A DNA stretch of 64,000 nucleotides from positions 112,387 through 176,386 of the forward strand of contig DMZH01000003.1 in the NCBI GenBank assembly GCA_003484955.1, given 5' to 3'. Position 1 is the stretch's first letter. Each line of letters begins with the position of its first letter. Source of the DNA: Candidatus Woesebacteria bacterium (GTDB lineage: Bacteria > Patescibacteriota > Microgenomatia > UBA8517). Of the stretch, positions 2,969-55,007 are shown piece after piece. The notes under the pieces were generated by a model. The model was not told the DNA's origin. It searched no databases and saw only the letters and a list, made by a program, of their open reading frames with translations. Made by a program: the position numbers and the translations under genes.

Positions 2969-3187
2969 TTATTCTTCTTTGGACTGCATCCCTAGTAACC
3001 AAAGTACGGCTTCTTTTTTATAACGCCTGTCTCCCCTGGAGTTAATACGGATAGCGGGAAGTTTGCCTCTTTTTCCCCAGCGCTTGATCGTTAAAGGAGA
3101 GACTCTGAGAAGTTCACTAACTTCTCTCACTGTAAGTAAATCCGGAAGATCTTCCAACCTGATTTTCTTTTTAGTATTTTGATCCAT
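2969..3187 (-). CDS. Small HTH DNA-binding protein, excisionase/MerR-type (HTH_17-like).
   Basis: 72 aa. The motif LTVREVSELLRVSPLTIKRWGKRGKLPAIRI is typical of excisionase-family HTH proteins. Confidence 0.55.
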   Translation of the reverse strand: MDQNTKKKIRLEDLPDLLTVREVSELLRVSPLTIKRWGKRGKLPAIRINSRGDRRYKKEAVLWLLGMQSKEE

Positions 3188-3274
3188 TTTTATACGGTCA
3201 CCTGCCTAACACCTATCTATCTTAGTCAGAAGATAACAAAGTAGTTCAACAGTGTCAATAGTCAATTAATAGAA

Positions 3275-36218: not shown

Positions 36219-36285
36219 ATGACAAAAACCATATATAAAACCACATCAAACATTATCTCTATATATAAAGTAACGATGATATGGA

Positions 36286-38734: not shown

Positions 38735-39247
38735 ATGGAAGAAGGCTCAACAGGGACTCAAACGGAAGCTAAAAAGAAAGGTTCTAAATGGCTTTTCAAG
38801 TCAATCCCCTACATTATTATCCTCGCAATTGGTATATACGGCGGAACATACCTTGTCAGACAAAAACCCACCTGGTTCGGTCTTCCCCAGGGAACGGCAC
38901 AGGCCCAGGCAGAAGCAAACGCACTGGTTGCTAAAGTTTCAAAGCTTATGACTCTCCCCACCGACGAAACACCAACCATTGCAACGGTCACCGATGTCTC
39001 AATTGTCGCCGATCAACCGTTTTTCAAAAACGCCCAAAATGGAGATAAAGTTTTGATTTATCAAAAAGCCGGAAAAGCAATTCTTTACCGTGAGAGTGAA
39101 AACAAAATCATAGAAGTCGGGGCAGTTAATTTTAATCAGGCCGCCGCCAGTCCGGAAGTTTCTGCTATTGCTACACCAACTGCGAAACCAACCGTTGCAC
39201 CAACAGCTTCTCCGGTAGCCTCGCCGGTTTCAACTCCTACCCAGTAA
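38735..39247 (+). CDS. Hypothetical membrane-anchored protein with a Pro/Thr/Ala-rich C-terminal tail.
   Basis: TM (IPYIIILAIGIYGGTYLV). The C-terminus is ATPTAKPTVAPTASPVASPVSTPTQ. Confidence 0.4.
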   Translation: MEEGSTGTQTEAKKKGSKWLFKSIPYIIILAIGIYGGTYLVRQKPTWFGLPQGTAQAQAEANALVAKVSKLMTLPTDETPTIATVTDVSIVADQPFFKNAQNGDKVLIYQKAGKAILYRESENKIIEVGAVNFNQAAASPEVSAIATPTAKPTVAPTASPVASPVSTPTQ

Positions 39248-39248
39248 A

Positions 39249-39321
39249 TTTACAAGTTTCTACAACACGCAAGGAAACCCAAAGTTGTAAATTTGGGCAT
39301 GTTTTTACAAGTTGTTACAAC
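39249..39321. promoter_or_regulatory. Repeated TTTACAAGT(N4)TACAAC motifs (two copies plus an internal inverted copy) at the 3' boundary of the minus-strand fibre operon.
   Basis: TTTACAAGTTTCTACAAC at 39249-39266. TTTTTACAAGTTGTTACAAC at 39302-39321. Inverted AGTTGTAAATTT at 39283-39294. The same motifs occur at 54746-54832. Confidence 0.4.
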
Positions 39322-40136
39322 GTACTCCCCGATTCTGTCGCTATTGGTATTTCCACTACCCCGCTTGGCGTGGCACTTAGTTCGTCAAGAATTGTATTTA
39401 CAGATTGAGTATCTGCCGACTCTGTACTTTCCGAAAGTGGCGCCAGATTTAATAAAAACAAATCGTCAACCGATAGAGAAAACTTTTCCTCTGCAAGACT
39501 TTCTGCGGCTAAGTAAATATCTCCATTTTTTATTTTAGGATTCCTGGCCTTTTCCCCGGTTGTAACATCAACCGATTTATTGTCGTTAATGGAATAGACA
39601 ACCGCTCTCCAGGTGTCTGTTATGTCACGTCTTCCATAACTAATGTAGTCGTCGGAAAAATCAGGATTTAGAGAAGTATCCCCTGTTGTTAATTGTTTGG
39701 TCGATAACCCGTCAAAGAAAAATATTTGCCAAGTATTCCCATCCCACCCTTCCCAAACAACCCTTCCTTTATAATCAACCCTAGGATTAAGGTTGGTCCC
39801 CAAAAAAGTAAGCTGAGTTTTTGAATCCGAAATTGTATCATAAAGAAAAATCTGCCCTGCCTCGTTGTAATCGGAAACATATGCCACATATCTGCCATTC
39901 GTGAACGGGCTGCGGCTATTCCGACTTTCGTTCGTGATAAAGTGTTTGCTTCCCTGATAGGTATAAAAAACTTGTTGATACCCGCTAACCACTTCAGTGC
40001 CAACTTGCAAATCGTTTGCCTTTATATAGTCAGATAAACCTGCGTCTAGCTGTTGGGCAAGAATTGGTCTAACTCCAATAAAAAGCAATCCCGCAATTAA
40101 TAATGAAGCTGACCACGAAACAAATATTTTTCGCAT
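39315..40136 (-). CDS. Secreted PD40/TolB-like beta-propeller repeat protein.
   Basis: Signal peptide. Repeats such as GRYVAYVSDYNEAGQIFLYD and GRVVWEGWDGNTWQIFFFD. Confidence 0.45.
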   Translation of the reverse strand: MRKIFVSWSASLLIAGLLFIGVRPILAQQLDAGLSDYIKANDLQVGTEVVSGYQQVFYTYQGSKHFITNESRNSRSPFTNGRYVAYVSDYNEAGQIFLYDTISDSKTQLTFLGTNLNPRVDYKGRVVWEGWDGNTWQIFFFDGLSTKQLTTGDTSLNPDFSDDYISYGRRDITDTWRAVVYSINDNKSVDVTTGEKARNPKIKNGDIYLAAESLAEEKFSLSVDDLFLLNLAPLSESTESADTQSVNTILDELSATPSGVVEIPIATESGSTL

Positions 40137-40144
40137 ACAAAAAC

Positions 40145-42925: not shown

Positions 42926-42969
42926 TCTCCTATATTATTATAGCCCCTTGGTAACATCTTTCAAACAAA

Positions 42970-44766
42970 TCAATTTGTCCAATAAAAACCCTGTTTAATT
43001 CCCGATGAGAATGTACTGCCGTGACGAAGCAAGTCTCCTGTCCCCGGCTCAGTTGTCAGTGCTGGACAGTTATTCCATCCTGCAAGGCTAGTCGTTCCGG
43101 TACCATCAGCTGTTGTCTCCACTAATCTGAACAAATATCGAGTTGATGACACCGAACTTGTCCCAACAATATGGAAGTCAAATTCAATATCTTGCCCCGT
43201 TGCAGAAGTACCAGTTGGGGTATTGGCGGGCTTTACCTTTGAATATGTCTCAAGCATGTCGGTTCCTGTCAATTTTGCAACCGTTAAAGTCGTATCGTCA
43301 GCAACCGACGATGAAGCGTATTCCCAGGTGGCACTAGGAGCTACATCTGTCCACGAACCAGCAGAACAGTCAGAATCGGTACCAGCCCGAAACTGAAGTT
43401 TAAAGTATTTAGAACCTCCCGTAATAGTTGCAGTATTTACAGTTATATTTGTCCTTAATCTAAGTTCCTGGGCGGTGTCGGGCGGATCGTTTGCAATGGG
43501 TATGATCGTAATTCCTGTATTCTCAGCTAGATCTATTACTGAGACTGCGGACCAAGGATCGGTTACGTTTTCTGTGTCATTATCAACATACCACCTGTAA
43601 ACATTTTGAGTAAAAGTAGCAGATGCTGACTGAAGCGTTGTCGTTCCCGAAATCGCTACTGCGGTTCCCGGAGTTACCGTTCCGGACGACACAGTCATCT
43701 CTGTTGATGGGTTGGCAATTTGAATTTCTATCGTCTGTGTAGCTGAAGCTCCAGCACCTACATCCAAGACAACATATACACAAACCTCTGTTGTACCGAC
43801 TGACATTGAACCGGTTATCGTAGATTTTTCGGAAGCGTTGAAAGTGGCTCCGGTACCAAAAAGTGTCTCCGTACCGCCGTATGTTTCACTGGAACAGGTA
43901 GTGGCAGCTGTTTCATAATAAATATCAGCATTGGAAAGATTGCTGTTGGCGTTTACGGTTCCTGTATCGGTAATTATGACTTGAGTGACCGTTGCCGTGT
44001 TGATATCTGTCGCGAAGGTAAACGCGCCACCAACATAATTATTGGTAGAACCTATATTCATGGTAGAGGTTTGTGTACCTGTCGTACCAACTGTCATTAT
44101 TGGAAGAGTGTAAGTAATAGTAATTCTTACAGAATCCACATAGGCAGTAGTTGCCGCACCACCCCCTGAAACTTTAACGTTTTTGGCCGAAATCGCCGCA
44201 CCAAAAGTTGAGCCATTTATATCCGCTGCCGTCCAAGTATCTCCCCAGAGATTGGCAGCTCCGCCGTATGACACAAAAGTGTCCGTTGTTGTCCAATTAC
44301 TAATATTTGAAAGATCTGTGGCGCCAATAGCGTCAGTTTTAACTATCCTCACTGCATTATCCTGAGTTTCTCCAGTCCCGCCGTCAAGGCTGTCGCTTTT
44401 TTCCCATTCAACCGTAATACCGTCTATTCTGGCGTTTGAGGGAACAGAAAAGTTAAAACCGGTTGCTTTTATGTAATTGCTTACTCCTGTATTTTTTGTA
44501 AGAACTACGGATGCCTTGCTGTCATTGGTGGTAGTAGCATTCCCAGGAGTAGTCCAAGCAAGTGTGCCGATTCCTGCGTCGTTAACAGCCGTCGAAGCAT
44601 AACTTGGTCCGGCAGTAGCTGCCATTGCTTCCTGAATTTTTGGGGGGAAAATTCCGAACCCCGGAATTGAAATTGCAGGATAGCCGGTTAGAAGCCAGGA
44701 GAGAACCAAAAAAGTTACAAAAAAACTCTTGGTTATTCGAATAGTTTTTTTGTTCAATCTAATCAT
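42970..44766 (-). CDS. Secreted Thr-rich protein (598 aa), function unknown.
   Basis: Signal peptide with AMAA cleavage-like site. T/S/G-rich beta-type sequence. Sits 8 bp downstream of the giant gene. Confidence 0.45.
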   Translation of the reverse strand: MIRLNKKTIRITKSFFVTFLVLSWLLTGYPAISIPGFGIFPPKIQEAMAATAGPSYASTAVNDAGIGTLAWTTPGNATTTNDSKASVVLTKNTGVSNYIKATGFNFSVPSNARIDGITVEWEKSDSLDGGTGETQDNAVRIVKTDAIGATDLSNISNWTTTDTFVSYGGAANLWGDTWTAADINGSTFGAAISAKNVKVSGGGAATTAYVDSVRITITYTLPIMTVGTTGTQTSTMNIGSTNNYVGGAFTFATDINTATVTQVIITDTGTVNANSNLSNADIYYETAATTCSSETYGGTETLFGTGATFNASEKSTITGSMSVGTTEVCVYVVLDVGAGASATQTIEIQIANPSTEMTVSSGTVTPGTAVAISGTTTLQSASATFTQNVYRWYVDNDTENVTDPWSAVSVIDLAENTGITIIPIANDPPDTAQELRLRTNITVNTATITGGSKYFKLQFRAGTDSDCSAGSWTDVAPSATWEYASSSVADDTTLTVAKLTGTDMLETYSKVKPANTPTGTSATGQDIEFDFHIVGTSSVSSTRYLFRLVETTADGTGTTSLAGWNNCPALTTEPGTGDLLRHGSTFSSGIKQGFYWTN

Positions 44767-44774: not shown

Positions 44775-47700
44775 TTAGTTGCTTGTAAAGTAGTTAAGGC
44801 TAATTTCACCAACATCTGTTATTCCACCCGTTGCTGCAGCCGTTACATCAATCTGAATTGTCATATAGCTTCCTGCTGTCCAAGTACCTCCCGAGATATT
44901 TATTCCGTTCTGAATCCAGGTATTGGCGGCGCCCGCAATTTCCGTTCCCCCGGCATTATTTAATGCATTAGCGGTATCATAGACTTTTATATTGACATGT
45001 CCGTTTGTTGCATCGGATCTTTTCGCATAAGCTTGGATGGAATTACTCGTATCCCAAGCCGAGAAATTATCCGGAACTCTCCATTTTAGATATACTGTAT
45101 ATGTTTGAGGGGTTCCCTGGGTAGTTGTCCAGTTATAATAGTTATGAGTATCTCCCGAAGTGTTACAAACCGTTGTATTCGTTGCGGTTAAGCCCCCAAC
45201 ACCGGCTGATGCTGCACAGAAATCTGATGTCATTGTTCCCGTCCCGCTCCCTGTGAGAACAGCACCGGGAAATTCCGGAACAAGTTCTTCTCTTCTGTCA
45301 GGACGTGCAGTTCCGGCAAGGGCTGGGGCAGCTGCAGGATTAAATGTATATGTATTTCCCCCGCTTCCGATTGTTACTGTACTGGACGCTCCCAGTGTGG
45401 TTACACCCGAAACCGCCCCTGAGTTAATTATCATACCGTTGATTGTATTAGTTGCCGTTGCGCCACTAATTGCACCTGAAAGACCAAGTGTCGAGACACC
45501 AGAAACGGCTCCTGAGTTAATAATGATCCCGTTAATTGTGTTTGTGGCTGTTGCAGCAGTGATAGCTCCGGAAAGACCTAAAGTTGTAGCCCCACTAAGT
45601 GCGCCTGAATTAATAATAAGTCCGTTAATAGTATTGGTTGCAGTTGCGCCGGTTATGGCTCCGGACAGACCAAGTGTTGAAACGTTTGAAACCGCACCCG
45701 AATTTATTATTACTCCATTAATGGTATTTGTAGCGGTCGCGCCGGTTATCGCTCCCGTTGCAGAAAGAGTTGTGAATGCTCCACTTCCTGGAGTTGTGCT
45801 TCCGATTGAGCCGGGAGCAGCAAAAGTTGCTCCGTTAAGGGATGAGGCGTTAAGATTGGCAACATTGGTTGTTGAGGCAACCACAAATGGAGCTGTTCCT
45901 GTAACAAGAGTTGAAGTAATTTGACCAGAAGCATTGATTGTCGTAATTCCGGATAGAGCTCCTGAGTTAATAATCAAGCCGTTAATTGTGTTTGTTGCCG
46001 TTGCTCCGGTAATTGCTCCCGAAAGACCGAGCGTGGATACATTCGAAACTGCACCGGAGTTAATGATGATTCCATTAATAGTGTTAGTGGCTGTTGCGCC
46101 CGTGATAGCGCCTGTAGCCGAGAGTGTTGTGAATGCTCCGGTTGAAGGGGTTGAAGCTCCAAGTGTTGTCCCATTAATTGATCCGCCGCTAATTAAAACT
46201 CCTCCTGCAGCAAGAGTACCGTTAACTGTCGTCGTAACAGTTGCTCTACCAATTGCAAGGTTTGAGGCATTGGTTCCACCAATGGTAATTGCCCCATTTG
46301 AAGTTACTCCTGCCCCCGTATCAATTGTCACAGAACCCGAGGTACCGGACACGGAAGTTCCACCTGTTTGAATTGTAATTGCACCTGAATTTCCGGAAGC
46401 CCCGGTTGCTGTATTGATAGTAACTCCATTCAAATTACCGGTAGTACTAAAGGTGGCTCCGGCATCAAATGTAACTGCTGAATCGGACTTTCTAATTATT
46501 TTTGAGTTCGCATAATCAATTGTGATTCCTGCTACTCCTGCAGTTTCATCCGTGATAATAAAATCAGCCGCTACATAATTAAGAGCAACGGCAGAAGTTA
46601 CAATATTGGTACCACCTTCTTTAATTGTTGAAACTCCTCCCCCGGCACCAGTGTTGTCTGCTGAACATCCCCAGGTGTCTGCAGTTTCATTCCACTTTAA
46701 GAGTTGTCCATCGGAACATCCCTGAAGAAGGGTTACTCCGGAGACAAGAAGTTCCAGTCCGGAACCTGATGATGTGGTTACTGAAAGAGCATCTGTTGCG
46801 GCCGGAAGATCAATCCCCAGGCTTCCACCTTCCGTGCCGGTCATTGTTAGCCCCCCGTTTGAGGTGGCCGAGGCAATGTAATTACCCGTTGTGTCGGTTC
46901 CCAAAGCTACAGAATTTGCAGCAATTGTCAATCCTCCCGAAAAAGAACCAGATATATCTCCTCCCGTTGGACTTTCTCCAACGTTTACATATATTGAATC
47001 AAGGGTTGTGGAATAGTTGGAAGTTGTCAGATCGTCCGAGGCAGTTTGATCCCAAGCTGAGAGTTGAGCTGCTGCATTTGATGATGTGACGACAGTCCCG
47101 GAAGAGCCGCTAAATGTAAACGTTGAGTCGGAGGTGGAAAGATCCCCAATATCTAATATTCCATAGAGTGTTGGTGTTACGCCCGATTCCAACATTTTAA
47201 GTTCACTTGAGGTATTGACCAAAACAATGTCAAAGGCTCCCGTTTGATTCCAATCGGCGGTAAGGGCCGCCAGAGAAATTGTCGGAGCGGATCCTTCTCC
47301 CGTCGCGGCTGCGCTGATACCGTTTCCCGATGTCAAAGTCGCAACATAATCGCCTGTTGTATCAGTTGTTAAGGCTACAGAATTTCCAGCAATAGTTGTT
47401 GCAAAACTACCTGTTCCCGAACCCGTTACATCCCCTGTTAAAGTAATTGTCTGGTCTCCCGTGTTGGAACCTGAAACATTGGAGGCAGAGAGCGCTCCGA
47501 CAATGGTTAAGGCTCCTGCACTTGTGATTTTGTTGCTTGCACTGAAGAATTGTATATCTCCTTTGGTAATATTACTCGTTGAAACAAGTGTTAAAGTCTC
47601 ACTCGCAGCTGTCCCGCCTGTGATGGTAAAACTACCGGTTCCTGATAAAGCAGTGCCTGAATAAGTTCCACCTGAAAGGGATCCTCCTGATAGAGTTCCG

Positions 47701-50700
47701 CCTGAAAGAGTGGCACCGTTAATTGTTGATGAGGCTGATATTGTTGTAATACCACTTAATGCGCCTGAATTAATAATTAAACCGTTTATTGTATTTGTGG
47801 AGGTGGGTGCAGATATTGCACTCGTGGCGGATAAACCGGTAAATGCGCCACTTGCAGGTGTTACCGCTCCAATTGTTGCACCGTTAATTGTTCCCCCTGT
47901 AATTTGTCCTCCGGTGATAAAAACGTTACCCGCAGATTGAGTAGCAATTGTTCCTAAGCCTGATATATCGGTTGTTGAAATACTCAATAATGTTTTAACT
48001 TGAGCGGCAGTTAAAGCAATCGGAGTTGCGGAACTTCCAGTGTTGTTTCCGATAATTGAGTTGGCTGCGAGATTAGCCATCTTTCCCAAAGTTACTGCTC
48101 CATTGGCAATTGTTACAGCAAAAGATCCCGTACCAGAACCTGTTACATCACTTGTTAGACTAATTGTCTGATCTCCTGTGTTTGTTCCGGATGAACTGCC
48201 TGAAAAGTTTGATCCCAACAAAGTTCCAGTAACTGACAAATTCCCTGTTGTTCCCGCATCAGTTAAGGTAAGAAGAGTGTTGGGTGTAGCATTACTGTCT
48301 TTGATAGTTAACACCCCCGCGGCATCGCCTGCCCCCAAAGTCAATACCGGAACCGAGCTCGAGAAAAGTAATGGTGAGGCAGATGATAATGTAATTCCAT
48401 TTGATGTTGTTGCTCCCCTGCCCGTAACTGACAATAGAGTATCGGCTTCGGTAGTAGATAAATTAAGAGTTCCACCAAGAGAAAGGGAGCCTCCGCCTGA
48501 GAGAATTCCACTGGTGTTAATAGTAACCGAGGAGTTGGTCAAGCTGGAGTTGCCGATATTGGATAGTGTGTTGGTAGAACCCGATATAGAAAGACCCGTT
48601 GCGGTTCCTCCAATCGTCACACCACTAACTTGCCCCCCTGTTATGAATACATTACTTGCACTCTGAGTGGCTATTGTACCTAAGCCCGACACATCAGACG
48701 TTGAAATTCCAAGTAAAGTTTTGACCTGAGAAGCAGTTAAAGCAATCGGAGTTGTGGAACTTCCCGTATTATTTCCAATTATCGAATTGGCAGCCAAGTT
48801 TGCCATTTTACCTAAAGTAACTGCTCCTGAAGCAATAGTTGTAGCAAAAGATCCGGTACCGGTTCCGGTCACATCACTGGTTAATGTGATTGTCTGGTCT
48901 CCTGTGTTGGTACCGCTTGATGTTCCTGAGAAATTGGATGCACCAATTGTCCCTTCAACAGAAAAGTTGGCAAGTCCTGTACTACTGTTGGTAATGGTTA
49001 AAGTTCTATCAAGAGCATTATTAAAGTCAAATGTCAGGGAGGCTCCGCTTAATGGAATATTTGTGTCTGAGATAGTCAAGTCACTGAAAGTCCAAGCCCC
49101 TGATATTGATTGTATTTGGTCAGTCCTTGTAATTTTTGAATTGGTGTAATCAATTGCTATGTTTCCCTCTCCTGCCGGGGAATTTGTCGCATCAAAATCG
49201 GCTGCAAGAAAATCAACTGTTGTAGCGCTTGTAACCACATCAGCATCACCAATTTGGATGGTTGATATTCCTCCTCCTGCACCTGTGTCATCAGTACCGC
49301 AAGTTAAGACTCCTGCCACTGTCTCCAGAGCAGAACAGTTTGCAAATGAGCTATCGTACAATGTTATGCCAGCTCCACTACTACCCGCTTTGATTGTCAA
49401 AGTATCTGTATTAGTATCACCCAGGGTGGTATTTCCATTAGAATCAAGGATTGTGAAGTTACCACCTGCTCGGGTTGTACCACCAATGGTGATATTGTTA
49501 ATAGTTCCACCCACAAGTTGACCTCCTGTTATATAAACGTTGCTGGCAGACTGTGTTGCGATGGTGCCAAGGCCTGAGATATCGTTTGTTGAGATACCTA
49601 GTAAGGTCTTAACTTGGGAAGCTGTAAGTGCGATTGGTGTGGCAGCAGAACCAGTATTATTACCGATTATTGAATTTGCTGCCAGGTTGGTCATCTTACT
49701 TAGAGATACTGCTCCGTTTCCGATCGCGGTTAAGCCGGTATTATTTATTGATATATCTCCCGTAACGGCAACACCTGTTGCAATGTTTGATCCATTACCC
49801 ACAAAGATGTTGGCGCTTGTTAAGGTTTTTGAAAGCTTTCCCGAAAGAGAGGCTGTAAGATCTGTTTGATCATCAAGTAAGCCCGTGATTGCTCCCCAGG
49901 CAACTCCGGATGAGTTGGTAATCCAGGAAAGAGCAGAGCCGTTTGTACCCAGAACCTTGCCACTGTTGCCTGTTTGATCGGGCAGAACTTTGGTTGGGGA
50001 AAGGGATGTAATCCAGCCGGGATCAGCGTATGAACCGGTTGAAAGAATTATATTTCCCGTTGTCACTCCGTTGACGGCTACCGTTGATAATGATCCTCCG
50101 GAAATGGAACCACCCGAAATTGTGGCACCATTAATCGATACTAAACCACTAAGCTGTCCACCGGTAATAAACACATTGCTGGCAGATTGAGTAGCAATTG
50201 TTCCCAATCCCGAAACATCTGAGGTTGAAATCCCCAATAAAGTTTTAACTTGGGATCCGGTCAATGCGATTGGGGTGGCGGAGGATCCAGTGTTGTTTCC
50301 GATAATTGAGTTGGCTGCGAGATTGGCCATTTTTCCTAAAGTTACAGCTCCACCGGCAATTGTGGTAGCAAATGATCCTGTGCCAGATCCCGTAACATCA
50401 CTGGTTAAGGTAATCGTTTGGTCTCCTGTGTTGGTACCGCTTGATGTTCCTGAGAAATTGGATGCGGATATTGTCCCGTCGACTATGACATTGGCAACCT
50501 GGGAAGTCGTTGAATTAAGAATATTAAGTGTCCTCGTGGTGGCCCCGGTTAAATCAAATATCGTATTCCCGCCCGAGAAAGTAATTGTGGGGGTCGTTCC
50601 TGAAAAAGTAATCGGGGTGGCGGATGATAAAGTCAATGCTGTTGCAGTTGAAGCTCCGCGACCGGTGACCGATGAAAATGTATCCGCCTCAGTTGCCAAA

Positions 50701-52913
50701 AGATTTAATGTTCCCCCAAGAGATAAACTTCCGCCGCCCGAGAGAATTCCACTGCTATTAATGGTAACTGAAGAATTACTAAGACTGGAATTGCCAATGT
50801 TGGATAAAGTGTTTGATGCCCCCGAAATTGTTAAACCGGAGGCTGTACCGGCAATTGTTACCCCACTAATTTGCCCTCCTATTACATATATATTGCTGGC
50901 AGATTGAGTAGCTATTGTTCCCAATCCAGAAATGTCCGATGTTGAAATGCCCAGCAAGGTTTTTACCTGAGCTCCTGTTAGGGCAATTGGAGTCGCGGAA
51001 CTTCCTGTATTATTTCCGATTATTGAGTTAGCCACAAGGTTGGCCATCTTGGAAAGGGATATTGCACCATTTCCGATAGTTGTACTAATTGTGGTTGCCC
51101 CGCTTCCTGAAACGTCCCCACTTAAAGTAATTGTTTGGTTACCGGTTAAATAATTTGAATTATTGGTCCATTGAGAAATATTTCCTGACGTAAAGTTGGC
51201 AACTGAAAGACCGGATATGGTGTTACTTGCTCCCGAGATAGTTTTATTGGTTAAAGTGTCGCTTGTTGCCCGACCGATAAGAGTGTCTGTAGATATCGGC
51301 AAGGTTAGAGTTCCGGTATTACTAATTGTTGAAATAATAGGAGATGTACTAAACGTCCAAGTCCCGGTAACCGACTGAGTTTGATCACTTCTGACTATTT
51401 TTGAGTTGGTGTAATCAATCGATAAATTCCCCTCGCCTGCGGGAGAATTCGTCAGATCAAAATCAGCTCCCAAAAAATCAATTGTAGTTGCAGATGAAAC
51501 TACTGTTACATCATCTGCTTGAAGTGTTGAAATTCCCCCTCCCGTTCCTCCTGCATCAGTTGCACAGTCCCAGGAGGAGGTACTATCCGTCCACTTTAAA
51601 AGTTCGCCGTCGCCGCAAGTCCGGATTAAAGAAAGTCCTGACGAAGTGGCCACAAGCCCTCCCCCCGATTGAATATTCAAAGCCAAACTAGTAGCACCCG
51701 AGGTTCCTCCTCCGGTCAAACCATTTCCCGCGGTTACACCGGTAATTGTCCCTGATCCTCCGGATGTTCCACAGGACCCCCAAGTAAAGCCCCCGGTACT
51801 ATTGTTGTAAGTTAAACATTGTCCGCCGGTTGGATCATTCGAAGATGCCAAATCGGATTCATTTATGGAGCTATCGGAAACGCCTACCGCTGTAATTCCA
51901 GAAAGATCAACTGAAAGCGTTGCAATGTTATCAAGTGTGGCAACTGTTAATTTAGAACTATCGCTTTTTATGTCGGTTATTCCCTGAATTATCTCGCCTA
52001 CCGTCTGTTGATAAACACTATTGCCGCTTGAGATTGATTGGGCAACACTCTGAATATAATTCACAACTCCTTGAATTGGAGATGTCAAAATGGCACCGCC
52101 TGACGTTCCACCAGCAAAAGCCCATGTTCCCGTACTCTCGTCAAAGATCGGCTTATTGAATCCCGTTGGCTGATAATCAGAAATTCCCAAAACATCAATA
52201 TTCGCAGAAAGCTCATAAATTGAATTGAAAAGGGAGATTGCGTTCTTGGCAACCGTACTTTCTACTTCGGTTGTTTTCTGAGCGCCGGTTTTTATGACGA
52301 CATTTAAGATTTTACCGTTCTTATCAACCGTTCCTGCAACTACAAATCCGGTATCATATGTCTGTCCCACAAAGTCACCAATCAGCCTTCCCTCTTCAAC
52401 CTTTCCTTGAAGAATCTTAATTGCATAGGAGGTGTTGCTATCTAAAACCAAATTGGCAATCATTCTATCCATAATTTGGCCCACAGCTCTTGTGCCGTCT
52501 TTCAAATAAAAAGTGGTTATGATCCCATCACTAAAACTATCAAGCGCTTGGTCACCTGATAAGAATAAAATTCTTGCTCTATTAACAAATTGGTTGCCGT
52601 CCCCTTTTACCTCTCCGCTGATAACTTTATATACAGAAAATGAACCGTTTGATAAAAGTGCTGTCCCGACAACCTTATCATCAAAAAATGAATTTTCTAC
52701 TCTTTCTTCGTCAAGATAGCCTGATCTGGTCTCGACATCTTTGACCATTTGAGAGATGTTCGATGTCAAAAATCCCTTTTGTCCAGCAAGGTTTAGAAAA
52801 TATCCCCCTCCAACAGCCACCGCTGAAGTAATCGCAAGAACCAATACAACGACTAAGGGTATTACCCCGTCGTTATACTTTTTCTGAGACTGATATTTTG
52901 TTATCCGTAACAA
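44775..52913 (-). CDS. Giant (2712 aa) N-terminally membrane-anchored repetitive fibre protein.
   Basis: TM at aa 17-40. Five or more ~150-aa repeats (..AISLSKMANLAANSIIGNNTGSSATPIALT..QVKTLLGISTSD.SGLGTIATQSASN..). Four Cys-pair 'C.DG.LLKW....W.C..D.GG.GGG.ST' motifs. Many 'GAITGATATNTINGIIINSGA' repeats. Unique beta-rich C-terminal domain. Confidence 0.8.
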   Translation of the reverse strand: MLRITKYQSQKKYNDGVIPLVVVLVLAITSAVAVGGGYFLNLAGQKGFLTSNISQMVKDVETRSGYLDEERVENSFFDDKVVGTALLSNGSFSVYKVISGEVKGDGNQFVNRARILFLSGDQALDSFSDGIITTFYLKDGTRAVGQIMDRMIANLVLDSNTSYAIKILQGKVEEGRLIGDFVGQTYDTGFVVAGTVDKNGKILNVVIKTGAQKTTEVESTVAKNAISLFNSIYELSANIDVLGISDYQPTGFNKPIFDESTGTWAFAGGTSGGAILTSPIQGVVNYIQSVAQSISSGNSVYQQTVGEIIQGITDIKSDSSKLTVATLDNIATLSVDLSGITAVGVSDSSINESDLASSNDPTGGQCLTYNNSTGGFTWGSCGTSGGSGTITGVTAGNGLTGGGTSGATSLALNIQSGGGLVATSSGLSLIRTCGDGELLKWTDSTSSWDCATDAGGTGGGISTLQADDVTVVSSATTIDFLGADFDLTNSPAGEGNLSIDYTNSKIVRSDQTQSVTGTWTFSTSPIISTISNTGTLTLPISTDTLIGRATSDTLTNKTISGASNTISGLSVANFTSGNISQWTNNSNYLTGNQTITLSGDVSGSGATTISTTIGNGAISLSKMANLVANSIIGNNTGSSATPIALTGAQVKTLLGISTSDISGLGTIATQSASNIYVIGGQISGVTIAGTASGLTISGASNTLSNIGNSSLSNSSVTINSSGILSGGGSLSLGGTLNLLATEADTFSSVTGRGASTATALTLSSATPITFSGTTPTITFSGGNTIFDLTGATTRTLNILNSTTSQVANVIVDGTISASNFSGTSSGTNTGDQTITLTSDVTGSGTGSFATTIAGGAVTLGKMANLAANSIIGNNTGSSATPIALTGSQVKTLLGISTSDVSGLGTIATQSASNVFITGGQLSGLVSINGATISGGSISGGSLSTVAVNGVTTGNIILSTGSYADPGWITSLSPTKVLPDQTGNSGKVLGTNGSALSWITNSSGVAWGAITGLLDDQTDLTASLSGKLSKTLTSANIFVGNGSNIATGVAVTGDISINNTGLTAIGNGAVSLSKMTNLAANSIIGNNTGSAATPIALTASQVKTLLGISTNDISGLGTIATQSASNVYITGGQLVGGTINNITIGGTTRAGGNFTILDSNGNTTLGDTNTDTLTIKAGSSGAGITLYDSSFANCSALETVAGVLTCGTDDTGAGGGISTIQIGDADVVTSATTVDFLAADFDATNSPAGEGNIAIDYTNSKITRTDQIQSISGAWTFSDLTISDTNIPLSGASLTFDFNNALDRTLTITNSSTGLANFSVEGTIGASNFSGTSSGTNTGDQTITLTSDVTGTGTGSFATTIASGAVTLGKMANLAANSIIGNNTGSSTTPIALTASQVKTLLGISTSDVSGLGTIATQSASNVFITGGQVSGVTIGGTATGLSISGSTNTLSNIGNSSLTNSSVTINTSGILSGGGSLSLGGTLNLSTTEADTLLSVTGRGATTSNGITLSSASPLLFSSSVPVLTLGAGDAAGVLTIKDSNATPNTLLTLTDAGTTGNLSVTGTLLGSNFSGSSSGTNTGDQTISLTSDVTGSGTGSFAVTIANGAVTLGKMANLAANSIIGNNTGSSATPIALTAAQVKTLLSISTTDISGLGTIATQSAGNVFITGGQITGGTINGATIGAVTPASGAFTGLSATSAISAPTSTNTINGLIINSGALSGITTISASSTINGATLSGGTLSGGSLSGGTYSGTALSGTGSFTITGGTAASETLTLVSTSNITKGDIQFFSASNKITSAGALTIVGALSASNVSGSNTGDQTITLTGDVTGSGTGSFATTIAGNSVALTTDTTGDYVATLTSGNGISAAATGEGSAPTISLAALTADWNQTGAFDIVLVNTSSELKMLESGVTPTLYGILDIGDLSTSDSTFTFSGSSGTVVTSSNAAAQLSAWDQTASDDLTTSNYSTTLDSIYVNVGESPTGGDISGSFSGGLTIAANSVALGTDTTGNYIASATSNGGLTMTGTEGGSLGIDLPAATDALSVTTSSGSGLELLVSGVTLLQGCSDGQLLKWNETADTWGCSADNTGAGGGVSTIKEGGTNIVTSAVALNYVAADFIITDETAGVAGITIDYANSKIIRKSDSAVTFDAGATFSTTGNLNGVTINTATGASGNSGAITIQTGGTSVSGTSGSVTIDTGAGVTSNGAITIGGTNASNLAIGRATVTTTVNGTLAAGGVLISGGSINGTTLGASTPSTGAFTTLSATGAITGATATNTINGIIINSGAVSNVSTLGLSGAITGATATNTINGLIINSGALSGITTINASGQITSTLVTGTAPFVVASTTNVANLNASSLNGATFAAPGSIGSTTPGSGAFTTLSATGAITGATATNTINGVIINSGAVSNVSTLGLSGAITGATATNTINGLIINSGALSGATTLGLSGAITAATATNTINGIIINSGAVSGVSTLGLSGAISGATATNTINGMIINSGAVSGVTTLGASSTVTIGSGGNTYTFNPAAAPALAGTARPDRREELVPEFPGAVLTGSGTGTMTSDFCAASAGVGGLTATNTTVCNTSGDTHNYYNWTTTQGTPQTYTVYLKWRVPDNFSAWDTSNSIQAYAKRSDATNGHVNIKVYDTANALNNAGGTEIAGAANTWIQNGINISGGTWTAGSYMTIQIDVTAAATGGITDVGEISLNYFTSN

Positions 52914-52914
52914 C

Positions 52915-54738
52915 TTATTTATTTTTCCTTAAGAATGTAACGAGTGTTAAACTTCCGATAGTGGTTATAATAAAAAATAGAAATGTTGCAAAACCCATCA
53001 AACTATATATCCTTATAGCGGCTGACTGGGATTGTGCAGCCACAACTCCCCAATTGTAATCGTCAACATTTTTATAAGCCTCAAGCTTCAAGACTCCTTC
53101 ATAATCATAAGTAACCAATGATCCGCTCGTTCCCGAAACGGCTTTCATTACCAAACTATCAGAGGGTGCCTTTATTATTGTATCTTGAGGGTCGGGATTT
53201 AGAATATAATTTCCACTGGAATCTGCTACCGTAAATGAACTTGTTCCAGTGTGGTCAATTTGTCCTAATTGTCTTTGAAGTTCAAAGATATCAACCGAGC
53301 CTAAAATCACGCCCAAAAATTTGCCGTCTGTACCAATTATAGGAAGTGAGATTAAGATCGAGGGTTCAATTCCCGGAGAGTTGGGTTTGATAAAACCCGT
53401 CACAAAAACTCTGCCTGTCTTCGCTGGTTCACTAAAATAATCCCTATTGGAAATGTCTACATTCTGACTTTGAAAATAAAACGGATAAGTATCAACAATC
53501 TTACCGTTTCCGTCTGTAACAACCATACGGACAAAAGAATTATTTGAAGACAGATAGATTTGTTTAAGTTCACTATCTAAATCAGCAGTAGACCCTTCGA
53601 TCAACAATTTGGACAAATTGTTGTCGCTTAGAAAAGCTGAAAGGGTTAGTGTGTTTCTGTCCATGAAATTTTTAGTCACCTCGGATGCTAACTCAACCCT
53701 TCCGTTCATCTCGTCTAAGATGATAGTTTGAAAAGAACGATATGCCATCCGAAGCATAAATGATCCGATAAAGAAAACACCCAAGATCCACAAGAAACAA
53801 ACCAGAGCCTCTTTTTTAGTCTTTGTTTTAAAAGTATCAAATTCACTGGCGAAGGGATAGACAAACGAAAATGTTCCTAGGGTTATTCCAAAAATAGATC
53901 TACCCCAGTACCCACCTGTAAAAGACATTGCGGAGTAAATAAGCGCTATTGTTCCGGCTATAAAGGAGGTTATTATCATGAAATATTTACTTCCTTTTAA
54001 AGCTTTAAGGCTCAAGAATAAAAGTAAACAAAAAAATGCAAACCAAACCGCAGCAAACACGTCCCGGGAGACTATTCCGGTACGAAAAAGAATGGAGAAT
54101 GTAGAAGAACCTGGCCAAATAAGAAATCCTAGACCAATCAAAACAAACAAAAGGTTTATAAAAATTAGATATTGCAAGCGATAATTTATCCTTTTTATAG
54201 CCGAGAGTATAAGAACAACCGACAGCGATAAATATCCTACCGAAGAAACAGATTTTTGAGACAAAAATATTCCCGCTAGAACCAATGACAAAACGCCAAT
54301 GTAAAGATATAAGGCTGTATGTTTGTGGCCTTTATTAATCATGAAAGTATCAAAACCAAGTAAAAGTGCCCCCCCAATAAAAAGAAGAATATTTACAACG
54401 TTCAAATATGGCGCAATTTCCATTAATGGCTGTTGGGCATTTGCATAAACTGGATTTGTGAATTGGGAAAAACCGAGACCAATTGCAAGAAATCCTATAA
54501 ACCAATCAAAAATACTGAGTGATTTTTTAGGATCAGGCGCCGAAGATGGTGTCTCCTGAAGACTTTTACCTCTTTCCTGAAGAAGTCTGTTCACTTCGCT
54601 CGCCGGTATTCTAAACCTCCCCTCGGCACCCAACCTGACAGCTTTAATGCTGCCGTTTTCCAAATATTTATAGACCGTGTTTGTAGAAAAACCAAGAAGA
54701 TTTGCTACCTCTTTTACTGTGTAGGTCGATTTGGGCAT
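52915..54738 (-). CDS. Membrane-bound one-component regulator: N-terminal HTH (excisionase/HTH_17-type), about 8 TM helices, an extracytoplasmic Cache-like sensor domain and a C-terminal TM.
   Basis: YTVKEVANLLGFSTNTVYKYLENGSIKAVRLG...RFRIPASEV is the HTH. A long polytopic region follows. The Cache-like stretch is (..VTDGNGKIVDTYPFY..DISNRDYF..GVILGSVDIFELQ..). Its stop overlaps the giant gene start by 1 bp. Confidence 0.65.
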   Translation of the reverse strand: MPKSTYTVKEVANLLGFSTNTVYKYLENGSIKAVRLGAEGRFRIPASEVNRLLQERGKSLQETPSSAPDPKKSLSIFDWFIGFLAIGLGFSQFTNPVYANAQQPLMEIAPYLNVVNILLFIGGALLLGFDTFMINKGHKHTALYLYIGVLSLVLAGIFLSQKSVSSVGYLSLSVVLILSAIKRINYRLQYLIFINLLFVLIGLGFLIWPGSSTFSILFRTGIVSRDVFAAVWFAFFCLLLFLSLKALKGSKYFMIITSFIAGTIALIYSAMSFTGGYWGRSIFGITLGTFSFVYPFASEFDTFKTKTKKEALVCFLWILGVFFIGSFMLRMAYRSFQTIILDEMNGRVELASEVTKNFMDRNTLTLSAFLSDNNLSKLLIEGSTADLDSELKQIYLSSNNSFVRMVVTDGNGKIVDTYPFYFQSQNVDISNRDYFSEPAKTGRVFVTGFIKPNSPGIEPSILISLPIIGTDGKFLGVILGSVDIFELQRQLGQIDHTGTSSFTVADSSGNYILNPDPQDTIIKAPSDSLVMKAVSGTSGSLVTYDYEGVLKLEAYKNVDDYNWGVVAAQSQSAAIRIYSLMGFATFLFFIITTIGSLTLVTFLRKNK

Positions 54739-54745
54739 TTTGGCA

Positions 54746-54832
54746 GTTTTTACAAGTACTTCTAGGGTTGTTTTTACAAGTTTTTGTAAGTATTCACAAC
54801 TCCAATACTATATATAAAAGTTTTCACAACTC
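54746..54832. promoter_or_regulatory. Promoter/operator region of the fibre operon with direct repeats: GTTTTTACAAGT x2 and TTCACAACTC x2.
   Basis: GTTTTTACAAGT at 54746-54757 and 54770-54781. The 14-mer TGTTTTTACAAGTT at 54769-54782 is identical to 39300-39313. (A/T)TTCACAACTC at 54792-54802 and 54822-54832. A TATATA box lies between them. Confidence 0.4.
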
Positions 54833-54909
54833 TTGTCAAGCCTGAATTTGTAAAAACATGAGGCTAAAAATGATATAATATTTGAGGTTCCTGAAAAACA
54901 GTGAAAACT

Positions 54910-54980
54910 GGGCTCGTAGGCAAACGGTATACCGTATCATTCGCATTGATAAGTTCCGGGTTCAATTCCCGGCGAGTCCA
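54910..54980 (+). tRNA. tRNA-Ala (anticodon CGC).
   Basis: Manual fold. Acceptor GGGCTCG/CGAGTCC including the diagnostic G3:U70 pair. Discriminator A73. Anticodon stem TATCA/TGATA with loop TTCGCAT. T-arm CCGGG-TTCAATT-CCCGG. The D-stem has one C:A mismatch. Confidence 0.7.
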
Positions 54981-55007
54981 CAACTGGAGAGAAAAATCAA
55001 AAGGTAC

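What the first reader, a model, noticed from the sequence alone, without database searches (positions are those of the whole stretch)
52915..54738. Membrane-embedded HTH(excisionase-type)-polytopic-Cache one-component regulator translationally coupled to the giant fibre gene
The first gene of the minus-strand operon fuses an N-terminal HTH_17/excisionase-type DNA-binding domain to about 8 TM helices, an extracytoplasmic Cache-like sensor and a final TM. Its stop codon overlaps the giant fibre's ATG (52913-52915). This is a direct extracellular-signal-to-DNA device sitting on the fibre operon. Its promoter region carries repeated motifs that could be its operators.
Basis: partly seen in the sequence, partly recalled or inferred. 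Interest (0 to 1): 0.7.

Follow-up and report, generated by a model that had tools for sequence, protein, structure and literature searches.

The report
Membrane-tethered sensor-regulator heading giant-protein operon
The gene encodes a membrane-embedded protein with a DNA-binding head inside the cell and a Cache sensor outside. In ultra-small (CPR/Microgenomates) bacteria it always sits directly in front of a giant surface-protein gene. It most likely switches that operon by binding a phased array of short DNA repeats in its own promoter.

Summary
The ORF at 52915-54738 (-) is real and encodes 607 aa. HTH_17/excisionase-type domain: residues 6-56. dCache_1: residues 341-567. Both score above the curated cut-offs.

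Two details in the finding are wrong:
- There are 9 TM helices before Cache, not about 8, plus 1 after. The odd number is what places Cache outside. Positive-inside statistics across 58 relatives and an AlphaFold model agree.
- The giant gene starts with TTG at 52913, one base after the TAA stop. There is no ATG and no overlap.

The family is restricted to Patescibacteria. In 41 of 41 related loci the gene is immediately followed by a very large ORF, and 35 of these share the giant's N-terminal domain.

The promoter repeats are real. Five of seven window matches to TTGTRAAWAC lie in 54746-54857. The same unit (aAC-TTGTAA-aaAC) recurs in 42 of 42 upstream regions, one-directional, at spacings of 10, 20-22, 32 and 42 nt, starting at or after the -10 box.

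A sister family (same HTH, one TM, SH3 ectodomain, no giant gene) carries the same array. So the motif travels with the HTH.

Best reading: an autoregulating transmembrane one-component regulator that binds direct repeats head-to-tail, as BldC and Xis do. Function is inferred, not shown. No description was found in the searched literature; it is a new variant of a known kind.

The parts
52915..54738 (-). Gene for the 607-aa HTH_17 / 9-TM / dCache_1 / TM protein.
   Evidence: ORF. Domains. 86 full-length relatives, all with HTH_17 + dCache_1. Identical protein P0001 is called in public assemblies.
54571..54723 (-). HTH_17 / excisionase-type winged HTH (residues 6-56), cytoplasmic.
   Evidence: Pfam 45.7 bits and TIGR01764 46 bits. 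12 of the 17 invariant columns of the family lie here. Recognition helix GFSTNTVYKY is kept across loci whose proteins are otherwise about 22-25% identical. PDB profile hit to Xis Gp37, 4j2n.
54514..54570 (-). Flexible linker (residues 57-75) between HTH and TM1, followed by the near-invariant F77-D78-W79.
   Evidence: pLDDT below 50 for residues 62-72. Linker length varies across the family: the N-terminal segment is 75 aa here against a family mean of 96.5.
53740..54513 (-). Polytopic domain of 9 TM helices (residues 76-333) with no detectable structural relative.
53038..53718 (-). Extracytoplasmic dCache_1 sensor (residues 341-567).
   Evidence: Pfam 74.3 bits. PDB profile hits: KinD sensor 4jgo E 4e-14, PctC 5ltv E 9e-13. 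Flanked by TM9 and TM10.
52933..53010 (-). TM10 (about residues 577-602), followed by a 4-residue cytoplasmic tail, RKNK.
54834..54839 (-). -35 box TTGACA (inferred promoter).
   Evidence: Sequence. An exact TTGACA at the equivalent place in 35 of the 42 upstream regions. The consensus scan missed it because the -10 is TATATA.
54811..54816 (-). -10 box TATATA, 17 nt after the -35 (inferred).
   Evidence: Sequence. Relatives have AATAAT, CATAGT or TATAGT here.
54746..54829 (-). Array of four direct operator units: 54820-54829 in the -35/-10 spacer, and 54790-54799, 54770-54779 and 54746-54755 in the leader. A degenerate unit lies at 54780-54791.
   Evidence: Family-wide array with 10, 20-22, 32 and 42 nt phasing.
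54848..54857 (+). Inverted copy of the unit just upstream of the -35. It also lies over the likely -35 region of the divergent tRNA-Ala promoter.
   Evidence: The same inverted copy is present in L002 and L028.
44775..52913 (-). Giant surface-protein gene (2712 aa; TTG start; N-terminal TM anchor; conserved N-terminal domain at residues ~50-250, to ~450 in closer relatives).
   Evidence: The N-terminal domain is shared by 35 of 41 downstream giant ORFs. No Pfam hit.
39315..44766 (-). Remaining operon genes: 598 aa (42970-44766), 926 aa with DUF7948 + SBBP beta-propeller (40145-42925), 273 aa (39315-40136).
39249..39321 (-). Two phased pairs of the same unit at the 3' end of the operon, starting inside the last gene's stop codon. 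Role unknown.
   Evidence: They overlap a plus-strand terminator-like hairpin at 39278-39297.

Best explanation
The protein is a transmembrane one-component transcription regulator. Its N-terminal HTH_17 winged helix is cytoplasmic and is tethered by a flexible linker to an orphan 9-helix membrane domain. A dCache_1 sensor lies outside the membrane and is closed off by a tenth helix.

Several copies of the HTH bind head-to-tail to an array of ~10-bp direct repeats (aAC-TTGTAA-aaAC), all on one face of the DNA. The array occupies the -35/-10 spacer and the first ~60 nt after the -10 box of the regulator's own promoter. The regulator therefore controls its own synthesis and that of the giant surface protein transcribed behind it. 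Given the position of the sites, it most likely acts as a repressor or roadblock.

A signal sensed outside would change how the membrane-bound subunits pack. The signal could be a small ligand in the Cache pocket, or the state of the membrane domain. The change in packing would alter how many HTHs can sit on the array.

Shown: domains, topology, conserved gene pairing, the conserved phased repeat array, and its association with the HTH. Inferred: DNA binding, the sign of regulation, the signal, and the transmission route.
For: Domains and topology
- Both domains score above the curated cut-offs.
- Topology is N-in, 9 TM, Cache out, TM10, C-in. Support: AF2 model with pLDDT 82.6, and K+R of 10.7 inside against 1.64 outside in short loops over 58 relatives.

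The HTH
- It is by far the most conserved part: 12 of 17 invariant columns.
- The recognition helix is kept while the rest of the protein falls to ~22% identity.

The gene pair
- It is conserved in 41 of 41 loci from Woese-, Gottesman-, Ames- and Roizmanbacteria, while the upstream neighbours differ: Rho/M23, glycosyltransferases, DprA.
- 35 of 41 giants share the N-terminal domain.

The repeat array
- 125 core sites in 42 upstream regions against 19.6 in shuffles. 125 are forward and 16 reverse.
- Spacing peaks at 10, 20-22, 32 and 42 nt.
- Arrays start 40-50 nt after the start of TTGACA.
- Site density is 3.66 per kb upstream against 0.084 per kb in the rest of the loci.
- In the 64-kb window the unit clusters only at the two ends of this operon.

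Independent link between HTH and motif
- HTH_17 / 1 TM / SH3_3 proteins share 50-75% identity in the HTH but have no Cache and no giant neighbour.
- All four independent loci examined carry the same layout: TTGACA, then tandem TTGTAA[AG]AA, then CCTGCC-ATG.

Precedent
- BldC, a MerR-like/excisionase-like wHTH, binds variable numbers of ~9-bp direct repeats as head-to-tail multimers (PMC5859096).
- Transmembrane regulators and Cache-linked transcription factors are known classes (PMC10269533; PMC4822843).
Against: - There is no experimental DNA binding, no mapped transcription start and no known ligand.
- The loci compared are related, so the counts are not independent events. The shuffle control ignores phylogeny.
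- The exact tandem 19-mer is not diagnostic on its own. Only 7 of 120 metagenome matches lie next to a family member; the rest are unrelated contigs.
- The helix after Cache ends after 4-9 cytoplasmic residues, so the usual Cache output route is missing. How a signal reaches an N-terminal HTH is unexplained.
- Extra arrays fit the simple autoregulation model poorly. These are the inverted copies between regulator and giant gene in ~18 of 41 loci, and the copies at the 3' ends of genes, including 39249-39321.
- No covariation between HTH residues and operator variants was seen.
Confidence: 0.6

Rival explanations
1. Same parts, different switch. The membrane protein is an inactive precursor. 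A signal at Cache or the membrane domain triggers proteolysis in the disordered linker. This releases a free ~60-70-aa HTH, which then binds the repeat array as BldC does.
For: The linker between HTH and TM1 is disordered (pLDDT below 50) and highly variable in length. There is no classical output path from Cache (TM10 tail of 4-9 residues). A free small wHTH binding direct repeats has a direct precedent in BldC. Proteolytic activation is described for CadC (title and abstract of PMC11484849).
Against: No protease gene is conserved next to the module. The near-invariant FDW at the start of TM1 suggests the HTH-membrane junction itself matters. Nothing distinguishes this from the tethered model in silico.
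Confidence: 0.15
2. The protein is mainly a structural or assembly partner of the giant protein: a membrane platform that anchors, exports or senses the giant's conserved N-terminal domain. The HTH serves to hold the operon DNA at the membrane so that the 2712-aa product is made at its insertion site. Transcription control is secondary.
For: The pairing is invariant, and the giant's membrane-proximal N-terminal domain is conserved with it. There is an orphan 9-TM domain of unknown role. Repeat arrays bracket the operon in the window and bracket the regulator gene elsewhere.
Against: The sister family with the same HTH and the same array has no giant gene next to it, so the array does not depend on a giant partner. 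The 9-TM domain resembles no transporter, insertase or enzyme. The array position over the promoter and leader is the typical place for a regulator.
Confidence: 0.12
3. The repeats act in the RNA rather than the DNA. They would be a leader element recognised by an RNA-binding factor or the ribosome. In some clades they would pair with the complementary inverted copies downstream of the gene, for processing or attenuation. The HTH would bind elsewhere.
For: Most units lie after the -10 box and so would be transcribed. The gene lacks a Shine-Dalgarno sequence and has an unusually long leader for this genome. In ~18 loci, inverted copies follow a terminator-like hairpin after the gene.
Against: No Rfam family matches, and the leader does not fold better than shuffles (z -1.24). 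Units also occur in the non-transcribed -35/-10 spacer and inverted upstream of the -35. Phasing of 10-11 nt is a DNA-helix property. The window and the SH3 loci lack the downstream inverted copies.
Confidence: 0.06
4. It is a mobile-element excisionase or a chemoreceptor, as some database names say ('excisionase family DNA binding protein', 'Methyl-accepting chemotaxis sensory transducer with Cache sensor').
For: Database names. The HTH matches TIGR01764 and a phage Xis structure.
Against: No integrase or recombinase lies near the gene in any locus, and the chromosomal pairing is stable across deep lineages. There is no MCP signalling or HAMP domain; the protein ends 4 residues after TM10.
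Confidence: 0.02

Closest known systems
Transmembrane transcription regulators (TTRs) with a Cache sensor, e.g. the dCache_1 + HTH_18 (AraC-type) proteins listed by Demey et al. 2023 (PMC10269533, supplement) and the 'TF' output class of Cache proteins in Upadhyay et al. 2016 (PMC4822843)
   Same: One polypeptide combines an extracytoplasmic dCache_1 sensor, membrane helices and a cytoplasmic DNA-binding domain, with no phosphorelay.
   Different: There, Cache is N-terminal and the HTH (AraC-type HTH_18) is C-terminal, directly after the second TM helix. Here the HTH is of a different class (HTH_17) and sits at the N-terminus. It is separated from Cache by an orphan 9-TM domain, and nothing follows the last helix. 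HTH_17 occurs in only 151 of 50,302 catalogued TTRs. No HTH_17 + dCache_1 entry or Patescibacteria entry was found in the held, truncated supplement text.
ToxR / TcpP / CadC-type membrane-bound activators
   Same: N-terminal cytoplasmic DNA-binding domain, membrane anchor and outside sensor domain. They act on DNA from the membrane.
   Different: Those have an OmpR-type winged helix and a single TM helix. From my own knowledge, they bind upstream of the promoter as activators. Here there are an HTH_17, 10 TM helices and a Cache domain, and the sites lie within and downstream of the promoter.
BldC (Streptomyces) and lambda/mycobacteriophage Xis: small MerR-like/excisionase wHTH proteins
   Same: Same HTH superfamily. 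Short direct repeats of ~9-10 bp in variable number, bound head-to-tail on one face of the DNA (PMC5859096). The operator arrays here are direct, oriented and phased at ~10.5 bp, in variable number from 1 to 6.
   Different: BldC and Xis are free ~60-70-aa proteins without a sensor. The HTH_BldC model scores 14.2 bits against a cut-off of 77, so this is not a BldC family member. The repeat sequence differs: AATTxxxxC against CTTGTAAAAA.
Sister family found here: HTH_17 / 1 TM / SH3_3 proteins of the same bacteria (P0152, P0165, P0190, P0208)
   Same: HTH 50-75% identical, with the same GFSTNT(V/I)YKY recognition helix. Same promoter, tandem-repeat and CCTGCC-ATG layout. L177 even has the same upstream neighbours (Rho, LysM-M23) as the window.
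   Different: One TM helix and SH3b ectodomain(s) instead of 9 TM + Cache + TM. No giant gene downstream.

Membership tests
Transmembrane transcription regulator (one-component; definition of Demey et al. 2023: a DNA-binding domain plus at least one TM region) | Recognised DNA-binding domain | tested here: met
   HTH_17 45.7 bits (cut-off 27). TIGR01764 46 bits (cut-off 28.8).
Transmembrane transcription regulator (one-component; definition of Demey et al. 2023: a DNA-binding domain plus at least one TM region) | At least one TM region, with the DNA-binding domain on the cytoplasmic side | tested here: met
   10 TM helices in the AF2 model. Positive-inside rule over 58 relatives: K+R 10.7 inside against 1.64 outside. 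No dedicated topology predictor or experiment was available.
Transmembrane transcription regulator (one-component; definition of Demey et al. 2023: a DNA-binding domain plus at least one TM region) | Binds DNA and changes transcription while in the membrane | not testable with these tools
   Indirect only: a conserved phased repeat array in its own promoter, and the array travels with the HTH.
dCache_1 extracytoplasmic sensor (Pfam PF02743) | Profile match above the gathering score | tested here: met
   74.3 bits against 45, covering 8-239 of 240 model positions. PDB profile hits to KinD and PctC sensors.
dCache_1 extracytoplasmic sensor (Pfam PF02743) | Fills the outside region between two TM helices | tested here: met
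   Residues 341-567 lie between TM9 (ends ~333) and TM10 (starts ~577).
dCache_1 amino-acid-sensing subclass (PctA-type motif; residues recalled from my own knowledge) | Conserved Asp that binds the ligand's amino group, at the PctA/PctC position | tested here: inconclusive
   In the profile alignment, the family's conserved D483 aligns with the Asp of KinD. It lies two columns away from the Asp of PctC. The R-x-aromatic-aromatic motif (R432, Y434, F435) is kept. Only one pairwise printout was inspected.
Excisionase / recombination directionality factor | HTH_17/TIGR01764-type fold | tested here: met
   PDB hit to Xis Gp37 4j2n, E 5e-4.
Excisionase / recombination directionality factor | Small free protein encoded next to an integrase in a mobile element | tested here: not met
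   A 607-aa membrane protein. No integrase in the flanks. Stable pairing with the giant gene in 41 of 41 loci, with housekeeping neighbours.
BldC family | Match to the HTH_BldC model | tested here: not met
   14.2 bits against a cut-off of 77.
BldC family | Operators made of variable numbers of short direct repeats | tested here: met
   1-6 oriented units per upstream region, spaced 10, 20-22, 32 and 42 nt. This supports 'works like BldC', not membership.
Classical MerR regulators | [quoted passage not shown] | tested here: not met
   MerR_1 13.6 bits (cut-off 21.6) and MerR 12.2 bits (cut-off 28.2). TM1 follows the HTH after a disordered linker. The operators are direct repeats and the spacer is 17 nt.
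Methyl-accepting chemotaxis protein (a name given by one source) | Cytoplasmic MCP signalling domain after the second TM helix | tested here: not met
   No MCPsignal or HAMP hit. The protein ends 4 residues after TM10.
ToxR/CadC family | OmpR-type winged helix (Trans_reg_C) and a single TM helix | tested here: not met
   No Trans_reg_C hit. 10 TM helices.

The most novel reading that the evidence does not exclude
The module is a self-contained surface-contact circuit of ultra-small episymbiotic bacteria. A membrane-embedded oligomer holds its own operon at the membrane through phased repeat arrays at both ends of the transcription unit. Through its Cache domain and/or the orphan 9-TM domain it reads the state of the giant protein's conserved membrane-proximal domain, for example host attachment or load. 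Production of the fibre is then tuned by contact rather than by a diffusible ligand. The wider HTH_17 membrane family (Cache and SH3 branches sharing one operator) would then be a lineage-specific envelope-to-DNA signalling system. It would stand in for the two-component systems that, from my own knowledge and not tested here, these reduced genomes tend to lack.
Probability: 0.12. Interest if true: 0.85.

Novelty: new variant of a known kind. Interest (0 to 1): 0.6.

Why it matters
From general knowledge, CPR/Patescibacteria have tiny genomes and few recognisable regulators, and are thought to live attached to other cells. How they control their very large surface proteins is not known.

This family gives a concrete and testable handle.
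- It is a single protein with an outside sensor and an inside DNA-binding head.
- Across deep lineages it is always wired to a giant surface-protein gene.
- It has a clearly defined candidate operator, the phased TTGTAA repeats, which can be tested in vitro or in E. coli without growing the organism.

It also extends two ideas. First, the BldC/Xis mode of reading direct repeats would be used by a membrane-tethered sensor. Second, Cache could signal without any domain after its second helix.

The practical payoff is better annotation. These genes are currently named hypothetical, excisionase or even chemoreceptor. They could also serve as a marker for the giant-protein loci.

Tried and rejected
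1. Metagenome scan for the exact tandem 19-mer CTTGTAAAAACTTGTAAAA. The rest are heterogeneous and include low-GC contigs that look like giant-virus or eukaryotic DNA (my reading, not tested). The 19-mer alone is not diagnostic, so this line was dropped as evidence.

3. RNA element. Rfam found only the three tRNAs. The leader folds no better than shuffles.

4. Covariation between HTH recognition residues and operator variants. Two HTH subtypes exist (STNTVYKY and STNSIYTF), but both use TTGTAA-type units. There was no clean specificity switch.

5. Identity of the giant protein's conserved N-terminal and C-terminal domains. No Pfam hit and no significant PDB sequence match.

6. Mobile-element reading. 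No integrase was found in the flanks.

7. Second giant gene of the window (29274-36218). It is not homologous to the first and has no such regulator.

8. Literature searches for Patescibacteria + Cache, HTH_17 + dCache_1, and CPR + giant + Cache + HTH returned nothing.
Full report
**1. What is at the coordinates**

- The ORF at 52915..54738 (-) starts with ATG and encodes 607 aa.
- Pfam finds HTH_17 at residues 6-56 (E 8e-12; 45.7 bits, cut-off 27). It finds dCache_1 at residues 341-567 (E 1.4e-20; 74.3 bits, cut-off 45; 8-239 of 240 model positions).
- NCBIfam finds TIGR01764 'excisionase family DNA-binding' (46 bits, cut-off 28.8).
- A profile of 58 family members matches solved Cache sensors: KinD 4jgo at E 4e-14 and PctC 5ltv at E 9e-13. 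With its HTH it also matches a phage Xis (4j2n, E 5e-4).
- The gene is the first of five closely spaced minus-strand genes, with gaps of 1, 8, 44 and 8 nt.
  - the 2712-aa giant protein;
  - a 598-aa protein;
  - a 926-aa DUF7948/SBBP beta-propeller protein;
  - a 273-aa protein.
- A plus-strand tRNA-Ala (54910-54981) lies between it and the upstream LysM-M23 peptidase and Rho genes. The gene therefore needs its own promoter.

**2. Two details of the finding are wrong**

*The junction with the giant gene.*
- The stop codon is TAA at 52917-52915, followed by G at 52914, followed by TTG at 52913-52911.
- There is no ATG and no overlap.
- The giant's frame is closed by a stop at 52931-52929, and TTG is the first canonical start after it.
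- Relatives keep a KYQxG(I/V)TPL motif just after this point and before the TM anchor.
- Public gene calls start the giant gene at the same base.
- A 1-nt gap still fits termination-reinitiation coupling, but this is inferred.

*The number of membrane helices.* The AlphaFold2 model was built on the 58-sequence alignment and has mean pLDDT 82.6.
- It shows helices at 76-94, 103-131, 138-159, 165-181, 186-207, 225-247, 251-274 and 278-306.
- A ninth helix starts at 308 and continues into the Cache stalk.
- After the Cache fold comes a tenth helix at 571-605.
- Nine helices before Cache is the odd number needed to put Cache outside when the HTH is inside.

A simple hydropathy scan misses helix 8. 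The charge pattern supports it, however.
- KTKTKK follows helix 8.
- Over the whole family, short cytoplasmic loops carry 10.7 K+R on average. Short outside loops carry 1.64.

**3. The 9-helix domain is an orphan**

- It has no Pfam hit.
- A separate model of residues 60-345 is confident (pLDDT 84, pTM 0.81).
- Foldseek returns nothing below E 0.2.
- Nothing points to a transporter, insertase or enzyme.
- Near-invariant positions are F77-D78-W79 at the start of TM1, G89, L119, P209, W278 and P295.

**4. The family and its gene context**

*Size and distribution.*
- A search of 5.8 billion proteins gave 86 full-length relatives of 600-700 aa. All have HTH_17 + dCache_1, down to ~23% identity.
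- Where the source names the organism, it is nearly always Woesebacteria, Gracilibacteria, Parcubacteria or Patescibacteria; one partial hit is labelled Bacteroidales.
- A filter-free HMMER search with residues 1-340 found 421 cluster representatives at E <= 1e-3 and 87 at E <= 1e-10. Most top hits are 600-670 aa.
- A scan of one genome per species gave 41 full-length loci, nearly all titled Microgenomates-group or Patescibacteria. Several carry an implausible 'uncultured Gammaproteobacteria' title.

*Pairing with the giant gene.*
- In all 41 loci the gene is directly followed on the same strand by a very large ORF. Where the contig allows, it reaches 3327 aa.
- In 35 of them this ORF shares the window giant's N-terminal domain (residues ~50-250, up to ~450 in closer relatives), which follows the TM anchor.
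- The upstream neighbours differ by lineage: Rho and LysM-M23; glycogen-synthase-like and GT4 glycosyltransferases; DprA.
- The conserved unit is therefore the pair 'regulator + giant protein'.
- One MAG carries two such pairs (L018 and L029).

**5. The promoter repeats**

*In the window.*
- TTGTRAAWAC has 7 matches in 64 kb (expected 1.27; 0 of 100 shuffles reach 7).
- Four are direct copies at 54746, 54770, 54790 and 54820. One inverted copy is at 54848. One copy is at 39301.
- The exact 12-mer ACTTGTAAAAAC occurs three times, at 54746, 54770 and 39301.
- By eye the promoter is TTGACA (54839-54834), 17 nt, then TATATA (54816-54811). The consensus scan did not list it because the last base of the -10 is A.
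- One unit lies in the spacer, three lie in the leader, and one inverted copy lies just upstream of the -35.

*Across the family.* The same layout recurs in the window and the 41 loci.
- An exact TTGACA in 35 of the 42 regions, a -10 such as (C)ATAGT/TATAGT, then 1-6 units, then often (C)CTGCC just before the ATG.
- 125 core hexamers T[TGA]GT[AG]A occur in 42 regions of 170 nt, against 19.6 in shuffles.
- 125 are forward and 16 reverse.
- Pairwise distances pile up at 10, 20-22, 32 and 42 nt and almost nowhere else.
- The unit consensus is aAC-TTGTAA-aaAC, and arrays begin 40-50 nt after the start of the -35.
- Density of the stricter unit is 3.66 per kb in the 160 nt upstream against 0.084 per kb elsewhere in the loci.

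*Caveat.* The loci are related, so the counts are not independent. However, the proteins are only ~22-25% identical between clades, while the HTH recognition helix stays nearly fixed (GFSTNTVYKY or G(Y/F)STNSIYTF).

**6. The motif goes with the HTH**

- The HMMER search also found proteins with the same HTH (50-75% identical) but a different body: one TM helix and SH3_3 ectodomain(s), 244-961 aa.
- Four independent loci of this sister family (L175, L176, L177-179, L180) have no Cache and no giant gene downstream.
- All four carry TTGACA, then 2-3 tandem TTGTAA[AG]AA units, then CCTGCC and the ATG.
- L177 even has Rho and LysM-M23 upstream, like the window.
- A protein with five more divergent tandem HTH_17 domains lacks the motif (L181).
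- This is the best in-silico evidence that the array is the autoregulatory operator of this HTH clade.

**7. Mechanism proposed**

*Precedent.*
- BldC is a MerR-like/excisionase-like wHTH. It binds variable numbers of ~9-bp direct repeats as head-to-tail multimers (PMC5859096).
- The oriented, helically phased and variable-number arrays found here fit that mode. They do not fit the palindromes of dimeric MerR proteins.

*Model.*
- I propose that several membrane-tethered subunits place their HTHs side by side on the array.
- The sites cover the spacer and the region just after the -10, so repression or roadblock is the more likely sign. This is inferred.
- The window's operon would be controlled as one unit.

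*The spacer clades.*
- In ~18 of 41 loci (Gottesmanbacteria-type) the two genes are separated by a spacer.
- The spacer holds a terminator-like hairpin and inverted tandem units, TTTTTACAAGTTTTTACAAG.
- This could be a second operator in front of the giant gene.
- The SH3 loci lack such downstream copies.

*The signal.*
- It is unknown.
- The Cache profile aligns best with the pyruvate-binding KinD sensor (ligand recalled from my own knowledge).
- The family's conserved D483 aligns with the KinD Asp rather than the PctC Asp.
- That is a weak hint at a carboxylate, not an amino acid.

*Signal transmission.*
- TM10 ends after 4-9 cytoplasmic residues, so the usual Cache output path is absent.
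- Transmission must go through the helix bundle, through oligomer packing, or through cleavage of the disordered linker (pLDDT below 50 at residues 62-72).

**8. Rivals**

- Proteolytic release of the HTH: plausible and not distinguishable here.
- A mainly structural or assembly role with DNA tethering. The invariant pairing supports it. The SH3 sister family, which has the array without a giant gene, weakens it.
- An RNA-level role of the repeats. Against it: no Rfam hit and no unusual folding; copies in non-transcribed positions and in both orientations; and the 10-11-nt phasing.
- Excisionase or chemoreceptor, as some database names say. The context and the lack of any MCP or integrase partner contradict this.

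**9. Comparison with what is known**

- Transmembrane one-component regulators are common. 50,302 were catalogued, 27% have three or more TM regions (17% have two), and some have up to 22 (PMC10269533).
- Cache is a listed partner in that catalogue: dCache_1 occurs in 936 of them, typically as dCache_1 + HTH_18. HTH_17 occurs in 151.
- Transcription factors are a recognised output class of Cache proteins (PMC4822843).
- So the kind is known. The following were not found described in the library searched:
  - the domain order: HTH first, then an orphan 9-TM domain, then Cache, then a bare last helix;
  - the restriction to Patescibacteria;
  - the obligatory pairing with a giant surface-protein gene;
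  - the BldC-like phased operator, shared with an SH3 branch.
- I rate it a new variant of a known kind.

**10. What remains unexplained**

- The inverted arrays after the regulator gene in some clades.
- The two phased pairs at 39249-39321. They begin inside the stop codon of the last operon gene, and one of them doubles as the T-tract of a plus-strand terminator-like hairpin.
- The CCTGCC box before the ATG, which other genes of the window lack.
- Extra motif pairs near neighbouring genes in Gottesmanbacteria-type loci.

**Verdict**

Function still needs a binding assay and transcript mapping.

Noticed in passing
window, start regions of most genes (e.g. 9613, 11018, 11094, 28790, 38671, 63954): Many genes have a TATAAT box only 5-12 nt before the start codon and no Shine-Dalgarno sequence. 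Leaderless or very short-leader mRNAs therefore seem to be the rule in this genome. The regulator gene, with its -35 box about 100 nt upstream, is an exception.
   Followed up: no
window 28790-38259 (+): A second giant ORF (29274-36218, 2314 aa) has a Peptidase_S74 'chaperone of endosialidase' hit at residues 1791-1837. It shows no similarity to the first giant and has no HTH-Cache gene in front. It is preceded by an overlapping 172-aa ORF with integrase-SAM-like sequence (my reading of the sequence) and followed by a Wzy_C + TPR protein of 657 aa.
   Followed up: partly
window 38735-39247 (+); L031 20292-20696, L033 7937-8707, L035 19924-20748, L040 18717-19115, L041 19202-20296: A small membrane protein (170 aa here, no Pfam hit) has homologues right after giant genes in several related loci. 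It may be another accessory of giant-protein loci.
   Followed up: no
window 44775-45494 (giant residues 2473-2712) vs L003 giant 2950-3189: The last 240 aa of the giant protein are 89% identical to those of the L003 giant, while the N-terminal parts are only 53% identical. The C-terminal domain is under much stronger conservation, or was exchanged recently. It has no significant PDB sequence match.
   Followed up: partly
L175 1062-1796, L176 1218-2111, L177 2501-3457, L180 516-1283: A sister family of membrane-tethered regulators. It has the same HTH_17, one TM helix and SH3_3 ectodomain(s), with the same tandem TTGTAA operator and CCTGCC-ATG box. L177 sits behind Rho and LysM-M23 like the window gene.
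   Followed up: yes
proteins P0149, P0181, P0183, P0226 (L181 849-1661 for P0149): These proteins are built of 3-5 tandem HTH_17 domains. This is a covalent version of the head-to-tail multimer idea. P0149's upstream region lacks the TTGTAA array.
   Followed up: partly
L005, L008, L014, L017, L020, L023, L031, L033, L034, L036, L040: spacer between the regulator stop and the giant start: Inverted tandem operator units (TTTTTACAAGTTTTTACAAG), often after a GC-rich terminator-like hairpin and a GCCTCA box. They are the exact complement of the leader repeats. They are absent from the window's clade.
   Followed up: partly
window 54739-54745 and the equivalent place in L003-L007, L021, L024-L028, L036-L041, L175-L179: A (C)CTGCC box lies 0-5 nt before the ATG of HTH genes of both branches. 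It is not seen before other genes of the window, and no Shine-Dalgarno sequence is present.
   Followed up: partly
L010, L012-L014, L016-L025, L029-L041, 20-60 nt upstream of the -35 box: GATAAG-rich repeats (e.g. GATAAGATTATGATAAGATTA) lie upstream of the regulator's promoter in Gottesmanbacteria-type loci. They may be a second cis element.
   Followed up: no
L001, L003, L008, L009 and many others (record titles); P0011 (source name): Contigs that clearly belong to Microgenomates (Rho 87% and M23 80% identical to the window in L001) are titled 'uncultured Gammaproteobacteria'. One family member is named 'Methyl-accepting chemotaxis sensory transducer with Cache sensor' although it has no MCP domain. 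These are likely annotation errors.
   Followed up: no
L018 and L029: Two regulator + giant-gene pairs come from one MAG (JAHFKK01). A genome can therefore carry more than one module with the same type of operator.
   Followed up: no
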